A stretch of DNA of 64,000 nt from NCBI GenBank assembly GCA_947457935.1, contig CANGXP010000004.1:5617-69616 (forward strand), in the 5' to 3' direction. Shown one piece after another: positions 7,791 to 63,970 of this stretch. Position numbers and translations under genes: made by a program. The notes under the pieces are model-generated. The model searched no databases. It saw only the letters and a list, made by a program, of their open reading frames with translations, and was not told the DNA's origin. The first letter of the stretch is position 1; each line of letters begins with the position of its first letter. This DNA comes from Alphaproteobacteria bacterium (lineage in GTDB: Bacteria; Pseudomonadota; Alphaproteobacteria; JAJTHO01; CANGXP01).

Positions 7791-7824
7791 AGGGAATAGA
7801 GTTTTGGCATTAGGGAATAGGAAG
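7791..7824. repeat. Degenerate heptamer tandem (AGGGAAT-type), single arm, directly before ATG 7825
   Basis: agggaat agagttt tggcatt agggaat aggaag. Confidence 0.4.
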
Positions 7825-8517
7825 ATGCCCCAACTCACCTTCAACGGTCTGTCTATCGACGTTACCCTCAAGAAGATAAAGGGGATGCGCCTTGTGGTTT
7901 CAGCCCCTGAGGGGCGGGTGCGGCTGTCTGTTCCCTTGCGGACGACAGAAAGTGCCATGCGCACCATGCTGCAACAGCATTGGGCGTGGATTCAGCAAAA
8001 ACAGGCTGCCTATCAAGCCCTGCCGCGCCCTTCAACACACACTTTTACCGAGGGTGAGTTGCATCCGTTTTTGGGGCGATTATACCCCTTAAAGATAGTG
8101 CCTACTTCCAAGCGCTCAAAAATTTTATTCCATAACAATGGATTAGAGATGCATACGGCAAAGACAAGCTCCGTGTTTCAACGATCGGCGGTGTTGACAC
8201 GGTGGTATCAAACAGAATTGCAAAAACTATTACCACCGATGATTGCCGAATGGGAGCAGGTGATTGGTGTTAAAACGTCGGGGTTTGTGATTCGGCAGAC
8301 AAAATCCCGCTGGGGCAGTTGCAACATCCGCACGCGGCAGATTATGCTCAATCTTGAACTGATGAAAAAGCCGCTGCATTGCCTTGAATACGTGGTGGTG
8401 CATGAGCTTGTGCACCTGTTAGAAGCCAGCCACAATGCACGGTTTAAGGGCTTTATGGATCAGTTTTTGCCGCCGTGGCGGGAGTATAAGAAAGAACTGA
8501 ATGGCGGACATTGTTAA
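7825..8517 (+). CDS. YgjP/DUF45 (M48-like) metal-dependent hydrolase
   Basis: KSRWGSC, YVVVHELVHL.E..H. Confidence 0.88.
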   Translation: MPQLTFNGLSIDVTLKKIKGMRLVVSAPEGRVRLSVPLRTTESAMRTMLQQHWAWIQQKQAAYQALPRPSTHTFTEGELHPFLGRLYPLKIVPTSKRSKILFHNNGLEMHTAKTSSVFQRSAVLTRWYQTELQKLLPPMIAEWEQVIGVKTSGFVIRQTKSRWGSCNIRTRQIMLNLELMKKPLHCLEYVVVHELVHLLEASHNARFKGFMDQFLPPWREYKKELNGGHC

Positions 8518-8523
8518 CGTATT

Positions 8524-8685
8524 ATACCAAGCACATTAAATTTCTAAAGAATTTCTGGATACCAGCTTTCGCTGGTAATTCGCACCACAGGCAGTCGCTT
8601 CTGGAGTGGCGAATCACCAGCGAAAGCTGGTGTCCAGTTATTTTTCTTATGATACGTTCCTTTAAGAATTTAATTGGCTTGGTAT
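8524..8685. mobile_element. Composite palindromic element: RPE-like termini enclosing a REP-like doublet
   Basis: Outer IR ataccaagcacattaaatttctaaa / tttaagaatttaattggcttggtat; inner IR ctggataccagctttcgctggtaattcgc (8555-8583) / gcgaatcaccagcgaaagctggtgtccag (8609-8637). Confidence 0.8.
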
Positions 8686-9473
8686 TACATCGCCTGTAAC
8701 AGCCGCAACGCTTTTTGATGCAGCGTACCACTGCTGGCGGCAACAAGACTACCATCCCACTCTTGCGTTAGGGAATTTCCCATCCAGTCGCTCACCACAC
8801 CGCCTGCCCCTTCAATGATGGGGATGAGGGCAACGACATCATGGAGTTTAAGGTTGGCTTCAATAACAAGGTCAATAGTGCCCATGGCAAGCAAACCATA
8901 GTTATAGCAATCCCCGCCATAGACAGGAAAGCGCACGCGATTGGCAATAAACGTGAAAATATTGTTTTGGTCAGCGTTAAAATTATGGGGGCCTGTACTA
9001 GCAAGAATGGCTTGGGAAAGTTCTAAACAAGCAGAGGTGCGGATAGATTTCTTGTTAAGCAGGGAAATATTATCCTTCATCCCTATCCATAATTCATCCA
9101 AGATGGGCTGATACAGAACGCCCACAACGGGTATGCCTTTGTGTAGCACACCGATGAGTGTGCCAAAGCTGGGCTTGCCGCTGATAAAGGCTTTCGTGCC
9201 GTCTATGGGGTCAATAACCCAAACAAACTCGGCTTCGGTGTTCTCACTCCCGTATTCCTCGCCAATAATGCCGTGAGTGGGAAAAGTATCAATAATAATT
9301 TGGCGAATACGTTGCTCGGCTTTTTGATCGGCGATGGTAACGGGCGTTTCGTCTTCTTTGTCGTGCTGCATCAACGGCTTGCGATAGTAGCTACTGATTA
9401 CCTTGCCACCCGCTCGTGCGGCTTTTTCAGCGCACTTTGCAATTTTTGCATAAAGAGTCGCGTCAAATGACAT
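8685..9473 (-). CDS. hisN: Histidinol-phosphatase (inositol monophosphatase family)
   Basis: PVTIAD, GEE, WVIDPIDGTKAFISG, GGDCYNY. Confidence 0.85.
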   Translation of the reverse strand: MSFDATLYAKIAKCAEKAARAGGKVISSYYRKPLMQHDKEDETPVTIADQKAEQRIRQIIIDTFPTHGIIGEEYGSENTEAEFVWVIDPIDGTKAFISGKPSFGTLIGVLHKGIPVVGVLYQPILDELWIGMKDNISLLNKKSIRTSACLELSQAILASTGPHNFNADQNNIFTFIANRVRFPVYGGDCYNYGLLAMGTIDLVIEANLKLHDVVALIPIIEGAGGVVSDWMGNSLTQEWDGSLVAASSGTLHQKALRLLQAM

Positions 9474-10024
9474 TATTTTGCAGGTTCTGGCAGTGGCGCG
9501 GGGCTATCACTGAGCGTTCTCATATACGCAATAATATTTGCCCGTTCTTGTGCGGTTTTAAAGCCCGCAAAGTTCATTTTTGTACCCGCAATATAGCTTT
9601 TCGGCTGATACAAGAAATGGTTGAGTGAATCGTAAGACCAAGTGCCCCCTTTCGCACGAAGTGCATCAGAATACGCATAATCTGTTACGTGCGCTTTTTC
9701 GCGGTTTACCGTATCCCACAAATGTGGTCCTACTTTGTTGGGCCCGCCTTTTTCAAAGCTATGACAGGTAAGGCATTTTTTATGCAACACTTCGCCTGCC
9801 GCAACATCCGCCGTTGCAAGCAGTGCCTCAATGGGTTCAGGTCCTTTGGGTGTATTATCCGCAATCTCAACGGGCGCAGATTCCACCCATTTATAGGCGT
9901 GTTCTTTGTGTTCGCCATGATGTTCATCGGGGAAGAATTGGCGGCTGAGGATGCTTGTGCCCAGCGTGATGACACCTGCAAGCAAAAGTGCACCAGCGAT
10001 TTTGTTACCTTCAAAGAAATTCAT
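9473..10024 (-). CDS. Membrane-anchored cytochrome c (CycM-like)
   Basis: N-terminal TM, CLTCH heme motif, GPHL, GTKMNFAG. Confidence 0.9.
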   Translation of the reverse strand: MNFFEGNKIAGALLLAGVITLGTSILSRQFFPDEHHGEHKEHAYKWVESAPVEIADNTPKGPEPIEALLATADVAAGEVLHKKCLTCHSFEKGGPNKVGPHLWDTVNREKAHVTDYAYSDALRAKGGTWSYDSLNHFLYQPKSYIAGTKMNFAGFKTAQERANIIAYMRTLSDSPAPLPEPAK

Positions 10025-10089
10025 AATGACTGCATTTTGTTTAGTGTTAAAATTTGCAATACTCAAACTCATATAATACTAGTATCAAG

Positions 10090-10944
10090 ATGACAATAAT
10101 CAATTCACCTATCGTGGCGTTTCAAGGGGTGGCGGGTGCCTATTCCGACCTTGTGAGCCGCACACTCTTTCCCAACGCAAAAACCCTGCCCTGTGCGGCT
10201 TTCGATGATGTTTTTGCCGCTGTAATATCGGGTAAAGCGGATGTTGCCGTTATTCCTGTGGAAAATTCTGTAGCGGGACGTGTTGCCGATGTGTATCACC
10301 TGCTCCCCGATGCAGGGCTGTTTATTCACGCGCAGCACTTCCAAAAAATCACACATTGTTTGTTGGGGGTGAAGGGAGCAGGGATTGCAGACATAAAAAA
10401 TGTGTATAGCCATGTGCAGGGACTTTCCCAATGTCGCGGCTATTTGCGGGATAAGAAATTTACACCAGTTGTGCATGTTGACACGGCGGGGGCTGCAAAA
10501 GACGTTGCATTGTGGGGCGATAAAACTAAGGCGGCGATTGCCTCTAGCCTTGCTGCTGAGATTTACGGACTTGATATTCTAGCGACCGATATTGCTGATG
10601 CCGCCCACAACACCACCCGCTTTTTGGTGTTGACCCGCGATAAGGCAATCCCTGTTGATGATGGCGGCGATTTTGTCACCACGTTGGTGTTTGAAACACG
10701 CAGCGTCCCCGCCGCACTCTATAAAGCCCTTGGTGGATTTGCGACAAACGGCGTGAATCTCAGCAAAATTGAGAGCTATTTACTCGACGGCAATTTTAAT
10801 GCCGTGCAATTTTATGTGGATGTGGAAAGCCACCCCGAACGCGACGCTATGCGCCATGCACTGGAAGAACTAAGATTTTTTAGTAAGGATGTGCGGGTAT
10901 TGGGGGTTTATCGTAAAGAAAGAAGCGATACAGAAACGGGTTAA
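10090..10944 (+). CDS. pheA: Prephenate dehydratase
   Basis: AFQG..GAYS, PVENS, NTTRF, C-terminal ACT domain (NLSKIES). Confidence 0.93.
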   Translation: MTIINSPIVAFQGVAGAYSDLVSRTLFPNAKTLPCAAFDDVFAAVISGKADVAVIPVENSVAGRVADVYHLLPDAGLFIHAQHFQKITHCLLGVKGAGIADIKNVYSHVQGLSQCRGYLRDKKFTPVVHVDTAGAAKDVALWGDKTKAAIASSLAAEIYGLDILATDIADAAHNTTRFLVLTRDKAIPVDDGGDFVTTLVFETRSVPAALYKALGGFATNGVNLSKIESYLLDGNFNAVQFYVDVESHPERDAMRHALEELRFFSKDVRVLGVYRKERSDTETG

Positions 10945-11008
10945 GTATTAAGGCAAAACTCATAATACAGCACCTCATCATTTATTAACCATTCTTGCTT
11001 ATAAGTAC

Positions 11009-19518: not shown

Positions 19519-22500
19519 TTACACCGCCTCTTGTAACGCATTCACCCCTAAATCCCCTGATTTCATGGCGGCAATGGCAGCGGCTGTTGCTTTTGCGCCC
19601 GCAATGGTGGTGATGCACGGAATGCTGTTATTAACACAGGTGCGGCGGATGGAGAAGCTATCCGAAATCGCTTGTTTGCCGCTGGTGGTGTTAACCACCA
19701 AGTGGACATCGCCATTTTTTAGGCTATCCACAATATGCGGGCGACCTTCTGCCACTTTATTGATGCTGGAGACGTCAGCACCGTTGTTTTGTAAAAAAGC
19801 GGCGGTGTTGTGGGTGGCACACACTTTAAAGCCAAGGCGCAGATATTCTTTCACCAACTCTACGATTTTCGGTTTGTCATCATCTTTAACAGAAATAAAC
19901 ACCGTGCCTGTGGTGGGCAACACGTTGCCTGCCCCCAACTGCGCTTTGGCGTAAGCACGGGCAAAATCACTATCAAAGCCCATCACCTCGCCAGTAGATT
20001 TCATTTCGGGCCCTAAGAGAGGATCAACGCCTGTGAAGCGGGAGAACGGAAACACCGCCTCTTTCACTGCAACATGTTTGAGGGTGAGTTCTTTCAACCC
20101 AAACGACGCGAGTTTTTCACCCGCCATAACTTTTGCGGCAATTTTTGCAACCGTAACCCCTGTGGCTTTCGCAACAAAAGGAACAGTGCGGGAAGCGCGG
20201 GGGTTAACTTCAAGAATATATATTTGAGACTCGAGGTGCGAGGCGCGAGGCGCGAGAGGGGAAGAAGTTTTGGAGGTGTTGCTAGAATTTTCTTCTTCCT
20301 CGTGCCTCGTGCCTTGCGCCTCCTCTCCGCCCTTCACCGCAAACTGCACGTTCATCAACCCCACCACCTGCAACGCTTTAGCAAGTTTCTCGGTTTGCAC
20401 TTTAATTTCTGCGACAATTTCTGGGGCAAGCGAGTAGGGGGGCAGGGCACAGGCAGAGTCGCCTGAGTGAATACCCGCTTCCTCGATATGCTCCATAATC
20501 CCTGCAATGTGGACGGTTTCGCCATCACTAATCGCATCCACATCCACCTCAATCGCATCTTTAAGGTAATAGTCTATAAGGATAGGATTATCCCCAAATT
20601 CTTTCAGGGCTTTTTGCGCGTAGGTACGCAAGCCCTGCACATCGTGGACGATTTCCATCGCCCGCCCGCCCAACACATAACTCGGGCGGATGACAACAGG
20701 ATAGCCGATGTCTGCGGCAACAGCTTCGGCTTGTTCTATCGTTAAGGCCGTTCCATTGCGCGGTTGTTTCAGGTTGATTTTTTGGAGGAGTTGCTGGAAG
20801 CGTTCCCTGTCTTCTGCCAAGTCAATCGCATCAGGAGACGTGCCGAGAATAGGAATGTTGGCGGCTTCCAAGGCTGCTGCCAGTTTCAGCGGGGTTTGTC
20901 CGCCAAACTGCACAATCACGCCTTTGAGCGTGCCTTTGGATTGCTCTTTGCGACAGAGTTCCAGCACATGCTCAGGGGTAAGCGGCTCAAAATAGAGCCT
21001 GTCTGAGGTGTCATAGTCGGTAGAAACCGTTTCAGGGTTGCAGTTCACCATGATGGATTCTAAGCCCATTTCCCGCATTGCGTAGGCTGCATGGACGCAA
21101 CAATAGTCAAACTCAATCCCTTGACCTATCCTGTTTGGTCCACCGCCCAGAATAATGACCTTTTGCTTACCAGAGACGTTCGCCTCACACACGGTTTGCC
21201 CGTTAAACGCCTGCTCGTAGGTGGAGTACATGTAAGACGTATTGGTTTTGAACTCACCCGCGCAGGTATCAACCCGTTTATACACAGGGTTTACGCCCGC
21301 TTTGTGGCGCAATGCTGTAACCTGTGTTTCAGGGATAGCGAGGAGTTTTGCAAGACGCGCATCAGAGAAACCAAGTTGCTTGATGGTGAGCCACTCATTA
21401 GGGGTAAGGGTTTCTTCGCGAGGCCCGCTTCTAAGCCACTCCTCAATATTCACAACATGCTGAATTTTCTCTAAAAACCACGTATCAATTTTGGTGATTT
21501 TATAAATCTCTTCAACGGTTAAGCCCTTGCGAAAGCCTTGTGCGACATGCAAAATGCGGTTTGGCACAGGCGTACCGAGCGCTTGGCGGAGTTCTTCTAC
21601 TGTAGAATCTTCCATGATTTCATCAAAGCCCGTTAGCCCAATTTCCATGGACACCAAGGCTTTTTGCACACTTTCTGCAAAGTTGCGCCCAATGCTCATC
21701 GCTTCCCCCACAGATTTCATGGAGGTGGTTAAGAGTGCATCCGCCCCTGGGAATTTCTCAAACGTAAAGCGCGGCATTTTGGTGACGACATAATCAATCG
21801 ACGGCTCAAATGAGGCAGGCGTGGTCACAGTAATATCATTTTTCAGTTCATCCAGCGTGAAGCCTACCGCCAGTTTTGCGGCGATTTTCGCAATGGGGAA
21901 ACCTGTTGCTTTTGACGCCAGCGCCGACGAGCGGGACACACGCGGGTTCATCTCAATCACCACCAAGCGCCCGTCTTTCGGGTTTACCGCGAACTGCACG
22001 TTACTGCCGCCCGTTTCAATGCCAATTTCCCGCAATACGGCAAGCGAGGCATTGCGCATAATCTGATATTCTTTATCAGTCAGCGTGAGGGCAGGGGCAA
22101 CGGTGATGCTATCACCTGTGTGAATGCCCATGGGGTCAATGTTTTCGATGGAGCATACAATAATGGCGTTATCCGCCTTATCGCGCACCACTTCCATCTC
22201 ATATTCTTTCCAGCCGAGCACCGATTCCTCCACCAATGCCTCATGGGTGGGGGAGAGTTTTAGACCGTTGGAGATAATATCAACGAACTCTTCACGGTTA
22301 TAGGCAATGCCGCCGCCTGTACCCGCGAGCGTAAAAGAGGGGCGAATAATGGCAGGGAGTCCCACGACATCTAGGGCTTTCAGGGCTTCTTCCAACGAGT
22401 GCACCAACACACTTTTAGGGGATTCTAAGCCGATTTTGTCCATGGCATCGCGGAATAAGAGTCTATCTTCCGCTTTGGCAATCGCGTGCTCATCCGCGCC

Positions 22501-22848: not shown

Positions 22849-22883
22849 GGTTCGGGTTTCAGGTATGGGGTTTCGGGGTTCGG
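22849..22883. repeat. Heptamer tandem (CCGAAAC-type), single arm, directly before the carB ATG
   Basis: Minus strand: ccgaacc ccgaaac cccatac ctgaaac ccgaacc ATG. Confidence 0.75.
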
Positions 22884-22892
22884 AAGAATTTA

Positions 22893-24092
22893 CTATACGA
22901 TATGCGCTGCACGATGCGCCACTTCTGCGCCCTGCATCATTTCTACAAACTGCTGAAATAAATATGCGCTATCTTCAGGGCCAGGGCTGGCTTCGGGGTG
23001 TCCTTGTACGGCAAACACGGGTTTATCGAGGCACTTAAAGCCTTGCAGTGTTCCATCAAATAACGAGATGTGCGTTGCTTCAACCGTTGTGGGCAGGGAA
23101 TCGCGCACCACATGAAACCCGTGGTTTTGACTGGTTATTTCTACTTTGCCTGTGTGTAAATCCTGAACGGGATGATTTGCGCCATGATGCCCCAACGGCA
23201 TTTTCGCTGTTTTTGCGCCTAATGCGAGCGCAAGCAGCTGAAATCCTAAGCAAATACCAAAAATGGGTTTGCCGCTGTTCAGCAACTCTTTGATAATGGG
23301 GAGGGCGTATTGCCCCGTGGCGAACGGGTCTCCAGGGCCATTAGAGAGGAAAATGCCATCAGGATTGTGTGCCAAAATTTCTTTGGCAGGTGTTGTGGCT
23401 GGCACAACCTCGACTTCACATTGTACATTAACTAAATTTCTTAATATATTGTATTTTATACCGTAATCAACACAGACAACTTTGTATTTTCCGCCACGTT
23501 GTTCGGGGTAGCCCGTGCCAAACTGCCATAAGCCTTGATGCCAAGGGTGTGCTTTTTCCGTGGTGACATCCTTAGCCAAATCTAGCCCCACCAGCCCTTG
23601 CCACGCCTTCAATGTCGTTTGATGCTGTGCGGTATTAAAATTGCCGTCTGCTGCATGGATAATAATGCCATTCGGGGCTACTCCGCCATCACGGATAGTT
23701 TGGGTGAGCGCACGGGTATCAACGCCACAAATTCCCACAATATTATGCGTTTTTAAATAGGCATCAAAGTGTTGCAGATTGCGATAATTCGCAGGATTAG
23801 TGATGCTCTCGCGGATAACAAGCCCGCTTGCAACAGGCTTTGCCGATTCAACATCTTCCGCGTTCGTGCCCACGTTGCCGATATGCGGAAAGGTGAATGT
23901 GATAATCTGCCCTTTGTATGAAGGATCGGTGAGAATTTCCTGATAGCCCGTCATCGCGGTGTTAAAACAAAGCTCGCCTAACGCGCTGCCAGTTGCTCCA
24001 ATGCCATATCCCTCAATAATCATACCATTTGTAAGCAGCAGTTGCGCCGTTCTTACGGCTGAAAAGGCAAGGGGATTAGGCGTGTTTGTCAT
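22893..24092 (-). CDS. carA: Carbamoyl-phosphate synthase small subunit
   Basis: [39 protein letters not shown]. Confidence 0.98.
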
Positions 24093-24298
24093 TAAAAAAT
24101 ACCAGCTATAGTTATTTCACTTTAAAATACCCCATGCCTGCAAACTGCCTTTAGCGTCTCTCATGTACAAGTTAAGGTACACTTCGAGCCGCTGCAGTTG
24201 TTTTCGACTATGGGGTATTTTAAATTGTAACAACTATGAAAATCCGCAGAGTATTAGCTGATGTATGCGATATCGTCAAGGTTTGTGTGCAATAAAAA

Positions 24299-29935: not shown

Positions 29936-29945
29936 AGAGAGAGGG

Positions 29946-30047
29946 GATAGGCACGAGGCACGAGGCACGAGGGGAAAAAGGAAGTAATCTAAAAACTTTC
30001 TTCTTGCAATTCCTCATGCCTCGTGCCTCGTGCCTCGTGCCCCTATC
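29946..30047. repeat. Intergenic heptamer-tandem hairpin, same family as the carB insert
   Basis: gataggcacgaggcacgaggcacgagg ... cctcatgcctcgtgcctcgtgcctcgtgcccctatc. Confidence 0.9.
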
Positions 30048-36984: not shown

Positions 36985-37086
36985 TTGTTTTCACGGCAGA
37001 ATAGAGCCAAATTTTTGGAAATTCATGCTTTTTTAACAAACACGATTTTCCCGTATCTTGACATAAAAAGGTTAATCTAACGTAAT

Positions 37087-37209
37087 GCAGGTGAAGTATT
37101 TTTGAGGAATTTTTAGGCAGACAAACACGAAAAAGCGGAGTGTATTAAATATACATGAGCATTTTGAGTGGTTGTCTAACAACAAAATTACCAAAAAGAC
37201 GAGCACTGC
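37087..37209. mobile_element. RPE-like palindromic element, subfamily B2
   Basis: Shares gcaggtgaag...acgaaaaa...tctaac...aaaaagacgagcactgc with 43708-43847. Confidence 0.8.
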
Positions 37210-37255
37210 CAAGGAGAGCTTGCACAATTTGCGTAAATCCGTCAAATATTCTACC

Positions 37256-42114: not shown

Positions 42115-42240
42115 ATACCAACCCAAGAAAATTTCTGATATTTAGGCGAGCGGATCTAAGCTAAATGGAGTTGGCTAAAGCCAATGACTGCAGCCGAAAA
42201 TGTGGCGCAGCCAAATAGCAGGAATTTAATGGGTTTGGTT
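42115..42240. mobile_element. RPE-like palindromic element, subfamily B1 (intergenic copy)
   Basis: Colinear with the pyrC insert, including the exact 29-mer GCCGAAAATGTGGCGCAGCCAAATAGCAG. Confidence 0.88.
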
Positions 42241-43707: not shown

Positions 43708-43847
43708 GGAGTTACGCAGGTGAAGAATTTTTTGATGATTTCAAGGAAGAAAACTACGAAAAAACGTAAGTTTACACAAGGTAAATGCGGCTTTTGAGAA
43801 GTTTTCTAACGATGAAAGGGCAAAAAAGACGAGCACTGCGTAACTCC
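43708..43847. mobile_element. RPE-like palindromic element, subfamily B2, inside the T1SS operon
   Basis: Perfect 12-bp terminal IR GGAGTTACGCAG/CTGCGTAACTCC; 140 bp. Confidence 0.88.
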
Positions 43848-53483: not shown

Positions 53484-56012
53484 CTACTTTTTAACCACCT
53501 TTTTCTTTGCAGCAGGTTTCTTCGCAGCGGTTTTTCTCGCCCCCGCCTTTTTCTTAGGCGGCTTCGCAAACACTAGCATCTCTAACGCTTGCTCCAGCGT
53601 GGCGTTGGCGGGGTCGAAATTTTTCGGGGCAGCGATTTTGGTTTTGTTATGAATAATCATATAGCCAAAGCGGCTTTTGAAGGCTTTGACTTCCGCGCCA
53701 TCCTTGGGGTGTAGCCCTAAAACGGTGGTGCGTTCTTTGTTTTTTATAATTGAGGTGGCAATGAGATCGGTAGCGCGATTGAGTCCTACTGTGTAGACAT
53801 CATCCTCTTTGCCAAGGTTAGCAAAGGTTTCACCCATTTTTAGATATGCACCAAACATGCCGATGTTCGCAATAATCATTTGCCCTGTATCGGCGTAAAT
53901 CCCGACGTCTCGGGGCAAAATCAGTAATTTTTCCGCTTGTTCAAACGTGATAGTTTCGGGCTTCAAACCCTTAGTAAGTGAGGCTCTGCGCGGTTTTTCT
54001 CCTTCAGGCGGTTCGCCTGCCTGCACGTAAAACCCGTAAGGCCCTTTCTTTACAACGATTTCACGCCCTTCTTTATCAACACCGAGCAATCTATCCCCGT
54101 TCGCGGTCATCTCGCCACTCGGCACAGTGCCTGCGCCAAGGGGGCGGGTGAACTTGCACTCAGGATAATTATTGCAACCGATGAAAGCCCCGAATTTGCT
54201 GAGTTTCAGCCCTAATTTTCCTGTTGAACAGGCCCTACATTGATTGCTTCCATCAGGGAATAATAGCCGTTCGAGTTTTTTGTTTAACTCATCAATAACA
54301 TCAGTAATTTTCAGATCATTGGTGCCTTGAATAGCGGCATTAAAATCTTGCCAAAAGGCACGGAGAACCGCTTGCCAGTTTATTTTCCCGTCGGCAATAT
54401 CATCCAGTTTTTCTTCTAAATCTGCCGTAAAGCCATACTGCACATAGCGTTCAAAGAAACTTTCTAAGAAGCTGGTAACGATGCGTCCTCTGTCTTCAGG
54501 GATAAATCTTTTTGCCTCCAAACGCACGTATTCCCTGTCTTTCAGCACTTGAAGAATGGATGCGTAGGTAGACGGGCGACCAATGCCCAACTCTTCCATT
54601 TTTTTCACCAAACTCGCCTCCGAATAACGGGGTGGCGGCTGTGTAAAGTGTTGTTCTGGCAGGATTTTTTTTAGGTCTAACGCTTCCCCCACCACAACTT
54701 CAGGGAGTTTCTTGCTGTTCTCGTCTTCTGTGTCCTCGTCATCGTCGGTATCTTCAATATACAGCTTCAAAAAGCCGTCAAACTTAATCACAGAGCCATT
54801 TGCGCCGAAAACATGCTTATCATCTGCGGAGGCAATATCAACCGCCACCGTGTCCATGATCGCGCTTTCCATCTGACACGCAAGGGTACGCTTCCAAATC
54901 AAGTCATACAGCCCGAGATGTTGTTTATCGAGGTCGCCTGAAAGTTGCACAGGCGCGCGGAATAAATCGGTTGGACGGATGGCTTCGTGCGCCTCTTGGG
55001 CGTTTTTTGCCTTGCTTTTATAGACACGCGGGGAATTTGGTACATATTTTTCGCCGAACTCTTGCCCGATATAGCGACGTGCCGCAGCAATCGCTTCCCC
55101 TGCCAGCGTCACCCCATCCGTTCGCATATAGGTAATAAGCCCGCGCTCATAGAGCGTTTGCGCTACTTTCATGGTGTTTGAGGCAGAAAGCCCGAGTTTG
55201 CGCGAGGCTTCTTGCTGCAAGGTGGAGGTGATAAACGGCGGGAACGGATGCCGCTTGACCTCTTTTTTATCCACTTTTTTGACGCTGTACGCCAAGCCCT
55301 GCAAAGCTTTCACGGCATTTTCTGTGAGGTCTTTATTGGGCAGACTGAATTTTTCTAGTTTTTTGCCGTCTAATACCTTGAGGCGGGCAGGCAACATTTT
55401 GCTATTGGCTTTGAAAAAATGCCCGTCAATCGTCCAGTATTCCTCAACAATAAACTGCTCGATTTCCTGCTCCCGCTCACAAATGAGGCGCAAGGCAACC
55501 GATTGCACGCGCCCCGCCGATTTACTGCCCGGTAATTTCCGCCACAACACAGGGGACAGGGTGAAGCCCACGAGATAATCGAGCGCACGGCGCGCAAGGT
55601 AGGCTTCCACCAACTCTTGATTCACATCACGGGGATGCTTCATCGCCTCGACAATCGCGCCTTTGGTGATTTCATTAAACACAATGCGTTTGACGGGCTT
55701 GCCGCTGCTCGCTTTATTTTTCGCCAGAATTTCTTGGAGATGCCATGAAATGGCTTCGCCCTCACGATCAGGGTCAGTCGCCAAGAATAATCTATCGGCT
55801 TTTTTCACCATCTGGGTGATTTCCGCGATGCGCTTTTTGGCGCGGTCGTCCACCTCCCACAGCATCGCAAAATTATTATCAGGATCTACCGAGCCGTTTT
55901 TCGATGGCAAATCGCGAACGTGCCCGAAACTTGCTGTCACCTCATAATCACCCCCTAAATACTTCTGGATGGTTTTTGCTTTGGCGGGCGATTCAACGAT
56001 GACAAGTTGCAT
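53484..56012 (-). CDS. topA: DNA topoisomerase I
   Basis: IVESPAKAK, ATDPDREGE, SAGRVQS, ITYMRTD, Zn ribbon, C-terminal repeats. Confidence 0.99.
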   Translation of the reverse strand: MQLVIVESPAKAKTIQKYLGGDYEVTASFGHVRDLPSKNGSVDPDNNFAMLWEVDDRAKKRIAEITQMVKKADRLFLATDPDREGEAISWHLQEILAKNKASSGKPVKRIVFNEITKGAIVEAMKHPRDVNQELVEAYLARRALDYLVGFTLSPVLWRKLPGSKSAGRVQSVALRLICEREQEIEQFIVEEYWTIDGHFFKANSKMLPARLKVLDGKKLEKFSLPNKDLTENAVKALQGLAYSVKKVDKKEVKRHPFPPFITSTLQQEASRKLGLSASNTMKVAQTLYERGLITYMRTDGVTLAGEAIAAARRYIGQEFGEKYVPNSPRVYKSKAKNAQEAHEAIRPTDLFRAPVQLSGDLDKQHLGLYDLIWKRTLACQMESAIMDTVAVDIASADDKHVFGANGSVIKFDGFLKLYIEDTDDDEDTEDENSKKLPEVVVGEALDLKKILPEQHFTQPPPRYSEASLVKKMEELGIGRPSTYASILQVLKDREYVRLEAKRFIPEDRGRIVTSFLESFFERYVQYGFTADLEEKLDDIADGKINWQAVLRAFWQDFNAAIQGTNDLKITDVIDELNKKLERLLFPDGSNQCRACSTGKLGLKLSKFGAFIGCNNYPECKFTRPLGAGTVPSGEMTANGDRLLGVDKEGREIVVKKGPYGFYVQAGEPPEGEKPRRASLTKGLKPETITFEQAEKLLILPRDVGIYADTGQMIIANIGMFGAYLKMGETFANLGKEDDVYTVGLNRATDLIATSIIKNKERTTVLGLHPKDGAEVKAFKSRFGYMIIHNKTKIAAPKNFDPANATLEQALEMLVFAKPPKKKAGARKTAAKKPAAKKKVVKK

Positions 56013-56050
56013 GGGAAGGAGGGGTAAGGGTTAGGGGGTAAGGGCTAAGG
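56013..56050. repeat. Heptamer tandem (CTTACCC-type), single arm, directly before the topA ATG
   Basis: Minus strand: cttagcc cttaccc cctaacc cttaccc ctccttc cc ATG. Confidence 0.7.
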
Positions 56051-56722: not shown

Positions 56723-56746
56723 CAAAAATGCAAGGATTTGTAGAGT

Positions 56747-57856: not shown

Positions 57857-57892
57857 TGTTCTAAGCGCTCTCAAAAGGGAGAAAAAAAGAAA

Positions 57893-57979
57893 CTGGACCC
57901 CTGCCTACGCAGGGGATTCGATGCGTTTCTGCATACTCACAGCGAATCTCTTGCGTAGGCAGGAGTCCAGAAATTCTTT
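57893..57979. repeat. REP-like doublet (class C)
   Basis: ctggacccctgcctacgcaggggattcg ... cgaatctcttgcgtaggcaggagtccagaaattcttt. Confidence 0.85.
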
Positions 57980-58018
57980 GGATTGCTAACCAGAATATTA
58001 AACAACGAAATTTTATCA

Positions 58019-58594: not shown

Positions 58595-58604
58595 AAAGTT
58601 TATT

Positions 58605-58669
58605 AGGCAAGCGTTGGGAGGCGAGAGTTTAGAGCTTTTCTATTGCCTCCCGCCTCCCAACTCTTGCCT
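58605..58669. repeat. Heptamer-tandem hairpin between hemJ and plsY
   Basis: aggcaag cgttggg aggcgag ag ... cctcccg cctccca actcttg cct. Confidence 0.8.
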
Positions 58670-58673
58670 TTTC

Positions 58674-59114: not shown

Positions 59115-59115
59115 T

Positions 59116-59262: not shown

Positions 59263-59263
59263 G

Positions 59264-59815: not shown

Positions 59816-59842
59816 TGGGCAAGAATAGCCTTGCCGTTTTAA

Positions 59843-60364: not shown

Positions 60365-60410
60365 TTTTTGTCATCCATTGTGATAAAAACAATATTATGC
60401 CAGCAAAGCA

Positions 60411-60426
60411 TTAACAAACTATTAAC
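60411..60426. promoter_or_regulatory. CtrA-binding consensus
   Basis: TTAA-CAAACTA-TTAAC, exact TTAA-N7-TTAAC, in a divergent intergenic region. Confidence 0.6.
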
Positions 60427-60448
60427 TACTTTTGATTAATAGTACAAT

Positions 60449-61300
60449 ATGTTTAATGCGGAACGCTATCGCCGTGACAGCTATTTTAATGCAGATAAAA
60501 ACACTGCAGATGCCGTTGTGCCTGAAAAGCAACGAACAACTCCTCTTCAAAGGCTTCATCTTGCCGTGAAGTTTTTTTTAGGCTGCGTCATCCTGCTGCT
60601 GCTCATCATCGGCGGTAAAATTACTGTCACAACAATCGACTATTATGCGTTTGGTAATCAAGAAAAAATCTATCTGCTACGAAAAGTATCAGCGTTGTTT
60701 TCACAAGACTATGAAAAAATCGAAGCCAAATCCACTTCTGTTGAAATAGGCGTAACCCGCCTTAATATTCCTGCCGCCTATATTATTTTCAACAAACCAC
60801 ACATTTTACCCCACTATCGCACTACCACGATGGAACTGTTATGGCGCACAGGAGATTCAGTTGCACCCCGTCACAGCCTACTTAATCTTGTGAAATGGCA
60901 AAATGATATCGCGTGGGTGCAGGTAAGCGCGATACCTGACGGGGACGAGTTTAACCAGCAAAAACGAATCCTTATCGACGACATTGCAATATCCCCGCAA
61001 TCACCCCTTAAAGAGGGAAAAAACTTGTTTGCGTCAAAAAGCAACAGCGCGTTCGATTACACAATTTTTTATAAAAAAGGGGAAATACCCACCTTATTCA
61101 AATGTGAAAAATCCCTTACTTTCCTCAAAAACTCGACATGCTCGGCGCACCTTATTTACAAAGACACGCTGTTATTAACATACACTGTTGCGCGCGATAC
61201 CCTTGACGAGTCGGAAACAATTACAAAAACTCTCAATAGCTTTTTCGCAAAGCATGAAGAAATTGAAAAACCAGCAGAAACTGTTGCGGTAGAGAAGTAA
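60449..61300 (+). CDS. Hypothetical single-TM protein with a periplasmic Cys pair
   Basis: 283-aa ORF; TM near aa 40-58; no recognised family. Confidence 0.65.
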   Translation: MFNAERYRRDSYFNADKNTADAVVPEKQRTTPLQRLHLAVKFFLGCVILLLLIIGGKITVTTIDYYAFGNQEKIYLLRKVSALFSQDYEKIEAKSTSVEIGVTRLNIPAAYIIFNKPHILPHYRTTTMELLWRTGDSVAPRHSLLNLVKWQNDIAWVQVSAIPDGDEFNQQKRILIDDIAISPQSPLKEGKNLFASKSNSAFDYTIFYKKGEIPTLFKCEKSLTFLKNSTCSAHLIYKDTLLLTYTVARDTLDESETITKTLNSFFAKHEEIEKPAETVAVEK

Positions 61301-61302
61301 AA

Positions 61303-63285
61303 CTATCCCCGAAAATGCTCGTAAATCTTCCGCGCGATCGCTTTGCTAATCCCGCGCACATTTTCTAAATCCTGTAGTGCTGCGCCCTTCACTGCCTTTG
61401 CTGAACCAAAATGCTGCAGTAACGCCTTTTTACGCGCTGCCCCAATTCCTGTCACTTCATCCAACGTATTCTGCGTAATCGCTTTGCTCCGTTTTGCTCG
61501 ATGGGTGGTAATGGCAAACCTGTGTACTTCATCGCGGAGGCGTTGCAGATAAAACAATACAGGGTCATTCGGCGGCAATGTATAGGGTTGCTTATTGGGC
61601 AGGAAAAACCGCTCGCGTCCTGCATTTCTATCAACGCCTTTCGCAATCCCCACCAGAGGAATATGCGCTAATCCCAATTCCGCCATTACTGCCATCACGG
61701 TGGAGAGCTGCCCCGCGCCGCCATCAATCAGCACCAGATCAGGTAAGGCGGGAGGCGGCAGGTGGGGGGCAAAAGTGGCAGCACCGTCCTCTCGCCCATC
61801 GCCTCCTACCTCTCGTCTATTCTGAACCGTATTTTCTTTCAGTGCCCGCGAAAAACGACGGGTGAAGACTTCCCGCATCATGCCATAGTCATCGCCGCCT
61901 TTGAAGGCGGGAGGCGGGAGTAGGGGGGCGGGAGTAGTAAGATTTTCCTCTCGCCTCTCGCCCATCGCCTCCTGCCTATTTTGAATGGTAAACTTACGAT
62001 AGGCGTTCTTGATGAATCCCTCTCTGCCCGCCACAATCATCGCGCCAACGGCAAATTGCCCCTGAATGTGGCTGTTATCATACACCTCAATCCGTTCGGG
62101 GATTTTGTCTAACCCGAATAATTTTTGCACTGCCGCAAGATTTTTTTCTGTTGAGGCAGATTCCACCAACTTCCGCGTCAATGCCTCTTGCGCATTTTTG
62201 AAGGCATGGTCTACCACCGCTTTTTTCGCGCCCCGTTGTGGCGTTTCTAGCACCACTGTATGCCCTGTTTTTTGCGAGAATGCCTCTTCTAACAGTTCCT
62301 TCGCTGCTATCTCCACATTGAGCAAAATAGCGGTAGGGCAGGGGGCTTCTGTATAGAATTGCGACAGAAAACTCTCCACAATTTCATTGAGCGGCGTTTC
62401 ACTGTCATGGTCAAGATAATAGGCTTTATTCCCATAATTCCGCCCACCGCGAAAGAAAAACACCTGCACACAGGTTTTGCTGGCTTGCGAGTGCGCTGCC
62501 ACCACATCCACCTCCTCCAACATGGCGATGTTCACATCTTGCTTGGCTTGAATGTGGCTTAATGCCTTGATTCTATCGCGATACAGCGCGGCGCGTTCAT
62601 ATTCTTGCGCCTCGCTTGCCTCGTTCATTTTGGTGGCAAGTTCCTCTTGCAACTGCCCACCCTTGCCCTCAAGGAAGCTCTTGGCTTGTTTGACGAGAGT
62701 TGCATAATCGGCTTGGGTAATTTTCTCCACACACGGCGCAGAACAGCGTTTAATTTGATATTGCAGGCAGGGGCGAGTACGGGCGTTGAAGTAACTGTCC
62801 GAGCACGGGCGCAACAAAAAGGTTTTTTGCAGGGCATCGAGGGTTGCATACACCGCTTGCACCGCCGCAAACGGTCCAAAATAATGCCCTTCTCGTGTTT
62901 TTTTGCCCCGATGTTTCAGAATTTGCGGAAATTTGTGGTCGGTCGCAATCAGAATATAGGGGAAGGCTTTGTCGTCCTTCAGCAACACGTTATAGCGCGG
63001 CTTGAGGTCTTTAATCAGGTTGCTTTCCAAGAGCAACGCCTCGTGTTCCGTGTGGGTGGTGATAAACTCCATCGCCACCGTTTCGGCAATCATCCGCTGA
63101 ATGCGATTGGTGAGGGCTTCAGGGCGTGTATAACTTACAACCCGTTTTTTGAGAGCCTTTGCCTTGCCCACATACAACACCTCGCCCGCTGCATTGAGCA
63201 TGCGATAGACCCCCGCTTGGTCACCCAGCGTTTTCAGGTAGTTTTGAATGGTGGCAACGCCACGATGAAGGGAGGAGGGGGGCAT
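61303..63285 (-). CDS. uvrC: Excinuclease ABC subunit C, with two repeat-derived insertions
   Basis: GVYRM, YVGKAK, C..Y.IKRC.APC, DNSH, IDGG.GQ, RDE.HRFA, HhH. Confidence 0.98.
   Translation of the reverse strand: MPPSSLHRGVATIQNYLKTLGDQAGVYRMLNAAGEVLYVGKAKALKKRVVSYTRPEALTNRIQRMIAETVAMEFITTHTEHEALLLESNLIKDLKPRYNVLLKDDKAFPYILIATDHKFPQILKHRGKKTREGHYFGPFAAVQAVYATLDALQKTFLLRPCSDSYFNARTRPCLQYQIKRCSAPCVEKITQADYATLVKQAKSFLEGKGGQLQEELATKMNEASEAQEYERAALYRDRIKALSHIQAKQDVNIAMLEEVDVVAAHSQASKTCVQVFFFRGGRNYGNKAYYLDHDSETPLNEIVESFLSQFYTEAPCPTAILLNVEIAAKELLEEAFSQKTGHTVVLETPQRGAKKAVVDHAFKNAQEALTRKLVESASTEKNLAAVQKLFGLDKIPERIEVYDNSHIQGQFAVGAMIVAGREGFIKNAYRKFTIQNRQEAMGERREENLTTPAPLLPPPAFKGGDDYGMMREVFTRRFSRALKENTVQNRREVGGDGREDGAATFAPHLPPPALPDLVLIDGGAGQLSTVMAVMAELGLAHIPLVGIAKGVDRNAGRERFFLPNKQPYTLPPNDPVLFYLQRLRDEVHRFAITTHRAKRSKAITQNTLDEVTGIGAARKKALLQHFGSAKAVKGAALQDLENVRGISKAIARKIYEHFRG
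61746..61818. repeat. Heptamer-tandem hairpin in frame in uvrC (copy 2)
   Basis: aggcggg aggcggc aggtggg ... cctctcg cccatcg cctccta cctctcg. Confidence 0.8.
61905..61977. repeat. Heptamer-tandem hairpin in frame in uvrC (copy 1)
   Basis: aggcggg aggcggg agtaggg gggcggg ... cctctcg cctctcg cccatcg cctcctg. Confidence 0.82.
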
Positions 63286-63294
63286 GAAGCGTGG

Positions 63295-63564
63295 TTAATC
63301 AAAGAGATCTGTATGCGTGCCCGTACCAACCAATACCAAATCATTTTCCTCTAAACGATACACTAACAGCCAATCTGGTTCAATATGGCATTCTCTACAT
63401 CCAATCCAATATCCTTTTAAGGCATGATCTTTTTGCGCTAAAGACAGGATTTTGCCTTGTTGGAGGCTTTCGATAATCTCCGTGAGTTTTTCTATTTTCT
63501 TCCCCCGTTTGACTGATTTTTTTAGATCTTTACGAAATTGCCCTGTGGTTCTAACGCGACGCAT
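63295..63564 (-). CDS. yafQ: YafQ-family mRNA interferase toxin
   Basis: FRKDLKK, DHALKG.W...RECHIEPDWLLVY, TGTH.DLF. Confidence 0.93.
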   Translation of the reverse strand: MRRVRTTGQFRKDLKKSVKRGKKIEKLTEIIESLQQGKILSLAQKDHALKGYWIGCRECHIEPDWLLVYRLEENDLVLVGTGTHTDLFD

Positions 63565-63827
63565 TATCCTTTTATCCCTAATTCTGCATATACCTCTTGA
63601 ATGGTATTGTATGTTGGCAAATCGGTATAATTATCCGCTTCTTGTAAGGCAGCACGCCTCTTTTTGCTCGGCAATTTCACTTCAAACGGTACGCCCTGAT
63701 GATACAACGATTGCCGCAACAACATGGTGATAACATCACTCATTTTTAGACCCAACTGCTTGTATAATAATTCTGCTTGCGCTTTAAGATCTGCATCAAC
63801 ACGCACATTGATTTGAGTTTTTGACAT
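63564..63827 (-). CDS. dinJ: DinJ/RelB antitoxin
   Basis: INVRVD..LK.QAE.....LGL.MS, GVPFEV; start ATG 63827. Confidence 0.88.
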   Translation of the reverse strand: MSKTQINVRVDADLKAQAELLYKQLGLKMSDVITMLLRQSLYHQGVPFEVKLPSKKRRAALQEADNYTDLPTYNTIQEVYAELGIKG

Positions 63828-63902
63828 TTCCCTATTCCTTTGCACTTTACCGTACAATGTATAGCATTTTTCTATAAAAGTCAAGATTTACCAAGCAGCG
63901 GA

Positions 63903-63970
63903 TTTTCGGTTTTAGGTTCTCGGTTTTGGCAAGTTCGTCCTTAAAACCTAACACCGAAAACCCGAAACCT
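63903..63970. repeat. Heptamer-tandem hairpin (CGGTTTT/AAAACCG type)
   Basis: ttttcgg ttttagg ttctcgg ttttgg ... aaaacct aacaccg aaaaccc gaaacct. Confidence 0.75.

What the first reader, a model, noticed from the sequence alone, without database searches (positions are those of the whole stretch)
7791..63970. Multi-family system of tiny palindromic elements that colonise intergenic gaps and write new peptide loops into housekeeping proteins
Seen: about 18 short self-complementary elements in 64 kb, in three classes: heptamer-tandem arms or hairpins (about 10), 125-150 bp units with terminal IRs (5, plus 1 hybrid) and REP-like doublets (3, one inside the hybrid). Four are in frame and stop-free inside carB, pyrC and uvrC (twice), each with an intergenic relative in the same window. 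No transposase is present. Known: in-frame palindromic insertions are described for Rickettsia palindromic elements (RPE). Inference: this lineage hosts several co-existing mini-element families mobilised in trans, and two unrelated classes act as a source of de novo protein sequence. This is my best candidate for an undescribed system.
Basis: partly seen in the sequence, partly recalled or inferred. Interest (0 to 1): 0.85.

Follow-up and report, generated by a model that had tools for sequence, protein, structure and literature searches.

The report
Mini palindromic elements writing protein loops
A small uncultured freshwater alphaproteobacterium is riddled with several families of tiny palindromic DNA elements, some of them cut-down insertion sequences, and a good number sit in frame inside essential enzymes as extra loops, much as is known from Rickettsia.

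Summary
The window has 17 profile-defined copies, one hybrid and one heptamer run. Of the 17, 14 fold far better than shuffles. Genome-wide there are 234 hits, 1.2% of 1.83 Mb.

The carB, pyrC and two uvrC inserts are in frame and missing from orthologues. I count 19 such inserts in 15 housekeeping genes.

This is not one new system:
- Family C shares its terminus with an IS630-family IS. Family B shares a 14-nt terminus with an IS701-family IS. Both IS break the assembly at contig ends. "No transposase" is therefore true only of the window.
- Families A and D have TA-rich termini but no parent IS was found.
- R is a REP-like doublet, and no RAYT gene was found.
- The heptamer hairpins resemble the published convergent heptamer repeats of Xanthomonas (PMC4692102). 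Their mechanism is open.

Congeneric genomes differ at mutL, glyS, uvrC and pyrC, so the turnover is recent.

Verdict: an RPE-like phenomenon in a new lineage, and a new variant of a known kind.

The parts
1884..1990 (+).
   Evidence: I3, 28-nt arms 89%; 11 genome copies; DNA fold z -5.6
8524..8685 (+). Hybrid: A-like outer inverted arms (8524-8549 / 8660-8685) enclosing an R doublet core (8547-8645)
   Evidence: I1, I7; the same composite recurs at several genome sites; R core fold z -9.6
20231..20322 (.). Heptamer hairpin (family H) in frame in carB; about 31 extra residues
   Evidence: absent from 12 of 12 relatives aligned at that site, present but 10 aa shorter and diverged in same-genus G001; fold z -7.6
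22852..22917 (-). Family H3 half element (one heptamer arm) between carB and carA
   Evidence: E 1.3e-10; does not fold (z +1.3)
24108..24237 (+). Family C MITE, 130 nt, related to the IS630-family IS
   Evidence: I4; 66 genome hits, 37 near full length; other copies of the family end like the IS seen at contig ends; fold z -6.2
29943..30041 (.). Heptamer hairpin (family H), intergenic; unit AGGCACG x3.4 and its complement x4.3
   Evidence: (I5, I6); fold z -10.5
37076..37215 (+). Family B MITE, diverged copy upstream of glmU
   Evidence: (D3); fold z -4.0
42115..42239 (+). Family A element, intergenic, has a stop in the frame that is translated in genic copies
   Evidence: (D4, 87% to the pyrC copy); fold z -4.6
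43708..43847 (+). Family B MITE, 140 nt, termini related to the IS701-family IS
   Evidence: (I9); fold z -7.1
48366..48490 (+). Family A element in frame in pyrC (about residues 45-86)
   Evidence: same-genus genome has the long form at the same site; modelled as a low-confidence loop; fold z -3.2
50478..50543 (+). Family H3 heptamer hairpin, intergenic upstream of rho
   Evidence: replaced by 29 other letters in related strains of runs X2 and X6; fold z -3.0
51969..52051 (+). Family R doublet, intergenic
   Evidence: E 1.1e-11; fold z -5.9
56020..56050 (+). Single run of 4.4 G-rich heptamers upstream of topA; no complementary arm found
   Evidence: only; no genome relatives by nhmmer
57892..57972 (-). 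Family R doublet, intergenic between dprA and plsY
   Evidence: (I2); present in identical contigs of X1 and X3, replaced by 11 letters in X6; fold z -9.5
58604..58671 (.). Heptamer hairpin (family H), intergenic
   Evidence: (I8); fold z -7.7
61747..61824 (.). Heptamer-hairpin insert in uvrC, second in gene order: 78 nt (26 codons) absent from same-genus G001, no target duplication
   Evidence: 70% like the other uvrC insert over 87 nt (D2); hairpin degraded (z 0.0)
61905..61990 (.). Heptamer-hairpin insert in uvrC, first in gene order; shared with G001 in diverged form
   Evidence: 66 nt replaced by 18 in related strains of X2 and X6; fold z -2.6
63896..63969 (+). Family H4 heptamer hairpin, intergenic
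   Evidence: 2 genome copies; fold z -2.5

Best explanation
The window shows a genome-wide load of unrelated small palindromic elements in an uncultured alphaproteobacterium that carries many insertion sequences.

**What the families are**
- Families C and B are MITEs, internally deleted relatives of an IS630-family IS and an IS701-family IS that are present in many copies. The transposases of those IS most likely move them in trans. The shared termini are shown. Mobilisation is inferred.
- Families A and D have TA-rich termini like family C. They are probably also moved by an IS630-type enzyme (inferred).
- Family R is a REP-like inverted doublet. It sometimes rides inside A-like arms.
- The heptamer hairpins (H, H3, H4) are a separate kind. 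They have two convergent arrays of a degenerate heptamer around an unrelated loop. In the one insertion whose empty site I could read, there was no target duplication. How they arise is unknown.

**How they come to sit inside genes**
- Insertion happens anywhere, and purifying selection removes most genic insertions.
- The survivors keep the frame, carry no stop, and fall in tolerant surface loops.
- For H this filter is easy to pass. One arm is poor in T and the other poor in A, so stop codons are rare in the arms.
- The inserted peptides then drift quickly, by in-frame indels, as largely unconstrained loops.
For: **Parent IS**
- The IS630-family IS has 9 DDE_3 matches, 8 of them at contig ends. 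The ninth, on C41, also has HTH_Tnp_IS630.
- All eight contig-end copies stop at ...GGGTAATTTTGTTTTGGAATGACTATA. Family C copies end the same way.
- The C41 copy carries the terminus of the other C subfamily.
- The 14-nt word CAGGACTTACGCAG occurs 49 times. 43 are within 260 nt of contig ends and 6 are in internal B elements.
- The reading frame running into that end is 100% identical, over its 51 residues, to the C-terminus of a 340-aa database protein. That protein scores 313.6 bits (cut-off 250) on NCBIfam 'IS701 family transposase'.
- Among 12 candidate pairs with B-like termini, 3 have exact 5-nt direct repeats at their flanks and 3 more have 4 of 5.

**In-frame inserts**
- The family A peptide recurs in UbiE, ThiD, UbiA, PurD, MutL, SfsA and PyrC, always on the gene's strand.
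- That frame is open in 6 of 6 genic full-length copies but in only 1 of 4 intergenic ones.
- Orthologue gaps confirm the inserts in carB, pyrC, uvrC (two), ileS (two H inserts, plus R absent in G004), glyS and mutL.

**Depletion in genes**
- Share of hits deep inside my ORF calls, which cover 91% of the genome: A 11 of 27, H 9 of 41, R 5 of 40, B 3 of 31, C 4 of 66, D 0 of 11.

**Recent turnover (G000 compared with same-genus G001)**
- mutL carries the long A form only in G000.
- glyS has a 48-aa C-derived insert only in G000.
- The second uvrC H insert, 78 nt, is only in G000.
- pyrC has the short A form in G000 and the long form in G001.
- The carB insert differs by a 10-aa indel, while the whole G001 carB matches are 92-96% identical.
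- Related strains in runs X2 and X6 lack or shorten elements at 50478-50543 and 61911-61978. X6 also lacks the one at 57892-57972.

**Loop position**
- In the PyrC model the insert is the only long low-confidence stretch (pLDDT 33-69 over residues about 45-85). It lies between two confidently modelled strands.

**Arm composition**
- Left arms: 75 T of 962 letters. Right arms: 62 A of 962.
Against: - No transposition was observed. Trans-mobilisation rests on shared termini only.
- The IS interiors are missing from the assembly. The IS701 assignment therefore goes through a database protein matched over 51 residues.
- No parent IS was found for A, D, R or H.
- For A, C and D, the TA at the ends could not be told apart from the inverted repeat itself. 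The only DNA-level empty site I had for A (mutL) aligned ambiguously.
- The conserved family A peptide, always read in the same frame, could also mean selection on the peptide rather than mere tolerance.
- My gene calls are longest-ORF calls, not a trained gene finder. The genic and intergenic counts are approximate.
- Five putative hosts (UbiA, DnaX, UbiH-like, an NTP-transferase, AddB-like) have the element upstream of or far from the first Pfam match. These may lie outside the real coding region.
- Own-arm complementarity of H elements is only slightly above cross-element complementarity (0.745 against 0.683). The own arm is the best partner in 6 of 37. This fits poorly with a simple copy-and-paste of intact hairpins.
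Confidence: 0.75

Rival explanations
1. The heptamer hairpins are not mobile copies of one another. They arise in place, by slippage, fold-back or template switching at sites that tolerate extra sequence. A lineage-specific repair or replication quirk favours one heptamer type.
For: - The one insertion with a readable empty site has no target duplication.
- Loops are unrelated in sequence, and in length range from roughly 10 to 70 nt. One loop is itself a TTAC repeat.
- Arms pair only a little better with their own partner than with foreign arms.
- The same-family genome G002 has a pure tandem array of the same heptamer.
- The two uvrC inserts are 70% alike over 87 nt, flanks included, which suggests a local duplication (D2).
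- In uvrC the inserts fall in a linker whose length also varies in distant relatives.
- The convergent GGGAATC arrays of Xanthomonas were likewise reported as not associated with mobile elements (PMC4692102, passages).
Against: - The same degenerate heptamer occurs at about 41 sites. These include conserved cores such as carB, where 12 of 12 relatives have no extra residues.
- The 78-nt uvrC insert appears as one block between two congeners.
- The family is confined to the window's own family among the 31 genomes searched. That fits a spreading sequence as well as it fits a lineage-specific process.
Confidence: 0.25
2. The in-frame peptides, above all the family A peptide, are selected functional modules. 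They would be domesticated surface loops or interaction motifs, not tolerated junk.
For: - The same roughly 43-residue peptide, read in the same frame and orientation, occurs in at least seven genes.
- Genic copies keep the frame open while 3 of 4 intergenic ones do not.
- The pyrC insert is kept in both congeners.
- A MutL in the public protein collection carries the peptide at 90% identity.
Against: - An open frame in genic copies is what survivorship alone predicts.
- The PyrC insert is modelled with pLDDT 33-69.
- Presence varies between congeners in mutL, and the form varies in pyrC.
- H inserts change by indels of 3-10 residues between congeners.
- The host genes have no function in common.
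Confidence: 0.1
3. The inserts are artefacts of metagenome assembly or binning, with repeats wrongly threaded into genes.
For: The genome is a fragmented MAG. 108 of 144 contig ends share 40 nt or more with another contig end.
Against: - All inserts keep the frame.
- An independent same-genus assembly carries inserts at the same sites in carB, pyrC, uvrC (first insert) and ileS.
- Contigs of X1 and X3 with 0 differences cover the intergenic R copy at 57892-57972. One X3 contig (48474-48646) reaches the right end of the pyrC insert.
Confidence: 0.02

Closest known systems
Rickettsia palindromic elements (RPE)
   Same: Both are families of roughly 100-150 bp palindromic repeats. Many copies lie in frame inside unrelated housekeeping genes and add a conserved peptide without destroying the host protein. 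This description of RPE comes from passages of the review PMC10969869. Family A here behaves the same way.
   Different: - This is a different lineage, an uncultured alphaproteobacterial MAG that is not Rickettsia by the record titles of its nearest relatives.
- I did not compare sequences with RPEs.
- Here five unrelated families contribute inserts, two of them with an identified parent IS.
- One contributor is a heptamer hairpin, not a unique-sequence palindrome.
- I have not read the primary RPE papers.
MITEs derived from IS630-family and IS701-family insertion sequences
   Same: They are short and non-coding. Their terminal inverted repeats match an autonomous IS in the same genome, and they occur in many dispersed copies. 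For family B, 3 of 12 candidate pairs have exact 5-nt flanking direct repeats.
   Different: - Some copies survive inside essential genes as translated loops (glyS for C, a GT4 glycosyltransferase for B).
- The TA duplication expected for IS630 (from my own knowledge of the family) could not be separated from the element ends.
QMITE1/QMITE2 of Coxiella burnetii
   Same: These are MITE families in a genome rich in IS. Some copies overlap genes and add residues in frame (PMC5896051, passages).
   Different: In the passages I read, the effects on functional genes are 3'-end overlaps or extensions, and the mid-ORF in-frame cases cited are in hypothetical proteins. Here the inserts are internal to well-conserved enzymes, with domain matches on both sides.
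REP / REPIN elements with their RAYT transposase
   Same: Family R is an inverted doublet of short G+C-rich hairpins. Its subfamilies keep the pairing through changes on both arms.
   Different: - No Y1/RAYT gene was found in a genome that is 99.6% complete.
- Some R cores are carried inside A-like terminal repeats.
- Three copies are translated, in IleRS, LeuRS and MnmE.
Convergent heptamer repeats (GGGAATC) of Xanthomonas and heptamer repeats (STRR-type) of Nostoc
   Same: Both are tandem heptamers dispersed over the genome. In Xanthomonas 70-75 cases form two convergent arrays on opposite strands. They are mostly intergenic and are not linked to known mobile elements (PMC4692102, abstract and passages).
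   Different: - The units differ.
- The commonest unit here (AGGCACG) has no run of three G, so the G-quadruplex reading does not carry over to it.
- Here 8 copies are translated inside six conserved enzymes.

Membership tests
MITE of an IS630-family IS (family C) | Terminal inverted repeats matching an autonomous IS of the same genome | tested here: met
   Eight IS ends at contig ends stop at ...GGGTAATTTTGTTTTGGAATGACTATA, like family C copies. The transposase remnant on C41 matches DDE_3 and HTH_Tnp_IS630.
MITE of an IS630-family IS (family C) | TA target-site duplication | tested here: inconclusive
   Elements and IS ends read TATAG...CTATA. Without a clean empty site, the TA cannot be told apart from the repeat itself.
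MITE of an IS630-family IS (family C) | Short, no transposase gene, many copies | tested here: met
   Elements are about 126 nt. There are 66 hits, 37 of them covering at least 80% of the model.
MITE of an IS701-family IS (family B) | Termini shared with the IS; transposase of that family in the genome | tested here: met
   The 14-nt terminus occurs 43 times at contig ends and 6 times in B elements. The C-terminal 51 residues read from a contig end are 100% identical to a 340-aa protein called IS701 family at 313.6 bits. The full gene is not in the assembly.
MITE of an IS701-family IS (family B) | Short direct repeats of the target at both flanks | tested here: inconclusive
   Of 12 candidate pairs, 3 have exact 5-nt repeats, 3 have 4 of 5, and 6 have none.
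Rickettsia palindromic elements | Palindromic repeat inserted in frame in many unrelated genes, giving a conserved peptide | tested here: met
   The family A peptide occurs in seven genes in the same frame.
Rickettsia palindromic elements | Sequence relationship to the RPE families of Rickettsia | not tested
   No RPE sequence was on hand. Families A, R and H were not found outside the window's own family among the 31 genomes searched.
REP/REPIN-RAYT | A RAYT (Y1 transposase) gene in the genome | tested here: not met
   PF01797 gave 0 matches in G000, while the control genomes rang in 6 of 14. Caveat: the assembly lacks repeat interiors.
REP/REPIN-RAYT | Inverted doublet of short palindromes | tested here: met
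   Alignment of 35 near-full R copies. Fold z is -5.9 to -9.6.
Convergent heptamer repeats (Xanthomonas type) | Two tandem heptamer arrays in convergent orientation close together | tested here: met
   For example, 29949-29972 and 30012-30041.
Convergent heptamer repeats (Xanthomonas type) | G-tracts able to form a quadruplex (four runs of GGG) | tested here: inconclusive
   By inspection, H3 arms and the AGGCGGG-type arms have GGG about every 7 nt. The AGGCACG type does not.

The most novel reading that the evidence does not exclude
The heptamer hairpins are a kind of insertion that needs no transposase. A lineage-specific activity lays down convergent arrays of a degenerate heptamer around arbitrary loop DNA, without target duplication. 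Because the arms hold few stop codons, it acts as a steady source of 25-40 residue disordered loops in essential enzymes (CarB, UvrC, IleRS, UvrA, KdsB, GlyQ). If so, the unexplained heptamer repeats of Xanthomonas and cyanobacteria would be products of the same kind of process.
Probability: 0.2. Interest if true: 0.8.

Novelty: new variant of a known kind. Interest (0 to 1): 0.55.

Why it matters
In-frame colonisation of housekeeping genes by palindromic elements has so far been known at scale mainly from Rickettsia. A 2024 review only says it is conceivable that the same happens elsewhere (PMC10969869).

This genome offers a second, independent case with several advantages:
- Five unrelated element families contribute inserts.
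- Two of them have an identified parent IS.
- Filled and empty sites differ between congeneric genomes and between strains in public freshwater metagenomes.

That makes two questions testable with natural alleles. How often do mobile palindromes become protein loops? Are such loops neutral or useful?

It also ties translated inserts to heptamer repeat hairpins, a repeat class whose origin is still unexplained.

Tried and rejected
- **carB inverted repeat at 21532-21663.** Rejected as an element: single copy, weak fold, native carB sequence.
- **Strict pairing of period-7 runs.** It found only 3 hairpins because it was too stringent. I replaced it with profile searches.
- **Other mobilisers in G000.** Y1/RAYT (PF01797), reverse transcriptase (PF00078), TnpB (PF07282) and rve (PF00665) gave no match. 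Repeat interiors are missing from the assembly, so this is 'not found', not 'absent'.
- **A full IS701-type copy in relatives.** Only a truncated relic turned up, in G008, with no Pfam hit.
- **A parent IS for A, D, R or H.** None found. No copy of A or D lies at a contig end apart from one A hit on C66.
- **DNA-level empty site for the mutL A insert.** The alignment was ambiguous, so no target duplication could be read.
- **Family A peptide against the protein collection, longer proteins.** Only 2 hits, the window's own PyrC and one MutL. The word filter is weak for 42 residues.
- **Rfam scan of the window.** No family at gathering score.
- **Sequencing runs.** No RNA holder was listed, so nothing can be said on expression.
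- **Read laying.** The pyrC A site in the relatives of X2 and X6 was not seen letter by letter. All I have is that one X6 contig has 153 nt where the window has 264. Parts without cover are not used.
- **Literature search for peptide words of REP-like elements.** Nothing found.
- **Papers not read.** The primary RPE papers and the cyanobacterial STRR paper (Vioque 1997) were seen only as a reference entry or through review passages. What I say on STRR beyond that is recalled.

Full report
**Setting**

The window is G000:C4:5617-69616 of a 1.83-Mb, 72-contig, 47% G+C assembly rated 99.6% complete. The nearest public records found with its PyrC carry titles such as 'MAG: Alphaproteobacteria bacterium', the best at 86% identity. 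Its order-level relatives have genomes of 1.3-1.9 Mb.

The window holds ordinary housekeeping genes:
- carA and carB, pyrB and pyrC, uvrC, topA, glmU and glmS
- rho, dprA, plsY
- a HlyB/HlyD-type exporter

Yes. I built profiles by three rounds of nhmmer from window seeds. I merged the seeds that converged:
- B with B2
- R with R2
- H1 nearly all within H2

That gave eight families. Genome-wide counts are A 27, B 31, C 66, D 11, R 40, H 41, H3 16 and H4 2. Together that is 234 hits and 22,241 bp, or 1.2% of the genome.

Seventeen hits lie in the window.

Of the 17 copies folded as DNA, 14 have z <= -2.5 against dinucleotide shuffles. The R and H copies reach z -7.6 to -10.5.

Period 7 stands out among tandem arrays:
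- 215 of 950 TRF arrays
- 32 strict runs, against 0-9 for each of six other periods

One candidate fails. The carB inverted repeat at 21532-21663 is single-copy native sequence.

**The four in-frame inserts**

| Gene | Length against profile | Insert | Status in relatives |
|---|---|---|---|
| CarB | 1109 aa against 1058 positions | residues about 843-873, the heptamer hairpin | missing in 12 of 12 relatives aligned there |
| PyrC | 470 aa | residues about 45-86, a family A element | missing in 12 of 14 aligned sequences; the two that have it are the same-genus genome and a record that reads identically over the region shown |
| UvrC | 660 aa | two heptamer-hairpin inserts | most relatives lack both |

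At the second uvrC site, three distant relatives have loops of their own. Against the same-genus genome G001, this second insert is one block of 78 nt, or 26 codons. It has no duplicated target.

**Genome-wide, genic inserts are common**

I made crude longest-ORF gene calls: 1861 ORFs covering 91% of the genome. Against these, the following hits lie at least 90 nt from either ORF end.

| Family | Hits deep inside ORFs | Total hits |
|---|---|---|
| A | 11 | 27 |
| H | 9 | 41 |
| R | 5 | 40 |
| B | 3 | 31 |
| C | 4 | 66 |
| H3 | 1 | 16 |
| D | 0 | 11 |

Pfam scans of 18 host frames, together with the orthologue comparisons, support 19 inserts in 15 genes:
- **A:** UbiE, ThiD, PyrC, PurD, MutL, SfsA
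- **H:** CarB, UvrC (two), GlyQ, IleRS (two), KdsB, UvrA
- **R:** IleRS, LeuRS, MnmE
- **B:** a GT4 glycosyltransferase
- **C-derived:** GlyS

GlyQ, KdsB, UbiE and some others rest only on Pfam spans that are longer than the profile. Five further hosts are ambiguous because the element lies before or far from the first domain match. These are UbiA, DnaX, a UbiH-like protein, an NTP-transferase and an AddB-like protein.

Family A gives one recognisable peptide, for example [43 protein letters not shown] in UbiE. It is always on the gene's strand. That frame is open in 6 of 6 genic full-length copies and in 1 of 4 intergenic ones.

H inserts read like ...EARGTR...LAPRAS.... Both strands of such a hairpin have the same layout.

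**Where the elements come from**

A DDE_3 search of the genome gave 9 matches. Eight are 42-46-residue stubs at contig ends, and one is a decayed copy on C41. The C41 copy also matches HTH_Tnp_IS630.

All eight contig-end stubs run into the same terminus. That terminus, and the matching left end with the start of the transposase frame, equal the ends of family C elements. The C41 copy carries the terminus of the second C subfamily. Family C is therefore a set of MITEs of IS630-family IS.

Most contig ends stop in repeats. 108 of 144 share at least 40 nt with another end.

The largest groups begin with CAGGACTTACGCAG. This 14-mer occurs 49 times, 43 at contig ends and 6 in internal family B elements.

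The frame running into that end gives 51 residues. They are 100% identical to the C-terminus of a 340-aa database protein with PF01609. That protein scores 313.6 bits (cut-off 250) on NCBIfam 'IS701 family transposase'.

Of 12 candidate pairs with B-like termini, 3 have exact 5-nt flanking repeats and 3 have 4 of 5.

A third terminus, GGCTTTGTTGCACAAATAA, sits at 19 contig ends. By recall it resembles IS903-group ends.

Four searches found nothing in G000: Y1/RAYT, reverse transcriptase, TnpB and rve. One assembled PF01609 match lies on C32.

**Families without a parent**

- A and D end in TA-rich inverted repeats, ATACCAAC...GTTTGGTAT and TATAGC...GCTATA. These resemble family C's TATAGTC ends, so an IS630-type enzyme is the obvious candidate. 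That is inference.
- A exists in a short form of about 125 nt and a long form of about 218 nt. The long form has an extra central segment of about 93 nt that keeps the frame.
- R is bounded by CTGGA...TCCAG. Its subfamilies keep the hairpins through changes on both arms. Several copies sit inside A-like arms, as in the window's hybrid.

**The heptamer hairpins**

These have 3-4 degenerate heptamers (AGGCACG, AGGCGCG, AGGCGGG and the like) and the complementary array. The two arrays are separated by loops that share no sequence and range from roughly 10 to 70 nt.

H3 and H4 use other units. Their arms contain both A and T, which allows stop codons. They have only one genic hit, and that one is doubtful.

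Left arms of H hold 75 T among 962 letters. Right arms hold 62 A among 962. Stops are therefore rare in the arms on either strand.

Own-arm pairing is only modestly better than cross-element pairing: mean 0.745 against 0.683, Mann-Whitney p 0.0017. The own arm is the best partner in 6 of 37. I cannot decide between spread by copying and origin in place, and I list the latter as a rival.

**Turnover**

Families A, R and H were found only in the window's own family among 31 genomes. G001 has 8, 16 and 67 matches respectively. G002 has 0, 16 and 13, the R matches being half-arms only. One weak A match occurs in G009.

Differences between G000 and same-genus G001:

| Site | G000 | G001 |
|---|---|---|
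| mutL | long A insert | none |
| glyS | 48-residue C-derived insert | none |
| uvrC, second H insert | present (78 nt) | none |
| pyrC | short A form | long A form, same site |
| carB H insert | present | present, 10 residues shorter |
| ileS H inserts (two) | present | present, 10 and 11 residues shorter |

Contigs from public freshwater metagenome runs add to this:
- X1 and X3 hold sequence identical to the window.
- X2 and X6 hold a relative at roughly 92% identity.
  - The H3 hairpin at 50478-50543 is replaced by 29 other letters.
  - 66 nt of the first uvrC hairpin are replaced by 18.
  - In X6 only, the R copy at 57892-57972 is replaced by 11.
  - One X6 contig has 153 nt where the window has 264 nt across the pyrC A site. 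The difference is 37 codons. I did not see this letter by letter.

**Structure**

I modelled PyrC with AlphaFold2 on a 20-sequence alignment (mean pLDDT 88, pTM 0.88). The insert, residues about 45-85, is the only long low-confidence stretch. It lies between two confidently modelled strands of the N-terminal part. This fits a tolerated loop. A low-confidence loop says nothing on function.

**Comparison with what is known**

- From passages of the 2024 MITE review: RPEs of about 150 bp, in ten families, integrated 44 times in R. conorii genes. [quoted passage not shown] The review says a similar mechanism in other prokaryotes is conceivable (PMC10969869).
- Coxiella QMITEs mostly overlap gene ends (PMC5896051, passages).
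- For heptamers, Rehm et al. report dispersed GGGAATC repeats in Xanthomonas, with 70-75 convergent pairs. They are mostly intergenic and not associated with mobile elements. The paper also reports GGGGA(C/T)T repeats in Nostoc (PMC4692102, abstract and passages).
- My searches turned up no report of heptamer hairpins translated inside conserved enzymes. These were word searches of an open-access library, and the supplements were closed. I claim only that I did not find one.

**Verdict**

But it is a mixture of known kinds:
- IS-derived MITEs
- an RPE-like in-frame family
- REP-like doublets without a RAYT
- convergent heptamer repeats

All of these occur in a new lineage. The open part is how the heptamer hairpins arise.

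Noticed in passing
window 52357-53483: A 1125-nt segment is absent from contigs of related strains in runs X2 and X6. It is bounded by 114-nt direct repeats (52362-52475 and 53488-53601, 78% alike). It holds an ORF at 52498-53355 (-) of 285 aa with no Pfam match.
   Followed up: partly
window 59115 and 61829: Contigs of X2 and X6 join these two places on opposite strands. That is an inversion-type difference, and one end lies at the edge of the uvrC heptamer hairpin.
   Followed up: no
G000:C5:18605-21916 (L122): glyQ and glyS read as one open 1103-aa frame here. In same-genus G001 the match has a TAA between them, and in G002, G004, G009 and G022 they match as separate pieces. This is either a fusion or a lost stop.
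   Followed up: no
G000 contig ends: 108 of 144 contig ends share at least 40 nt with another end. At least three IS types are involved (IS630 family, IS701 family, IS903-like terminus), plus an end whose frame looks like an IS30-type start by recall. The IS interiors are not in the assembly.
   Followed up: partly
G000:C41:10524-12934 (L134): A decayed IS630-family copy, with its frame split into 114-aa and 77-aa pieces, is itself interrupted at its 5' part by the IS701-type terminus that ends the contig.
   Followed up: partly
G000:C1:109573-109688: One heptamer hairpin has a loop made of about 14 tandem TTAC units.
   Followed up: no
G002:C173:3208-3301: The same-family genome has a long pure tandem array of the AGGCACG-type heptamer rather than a hairpin.
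   Followed up: no
window 1-64000: No Rfam family reaches gathering score in 64 kb, not even a tRNA.
   Followed up: no
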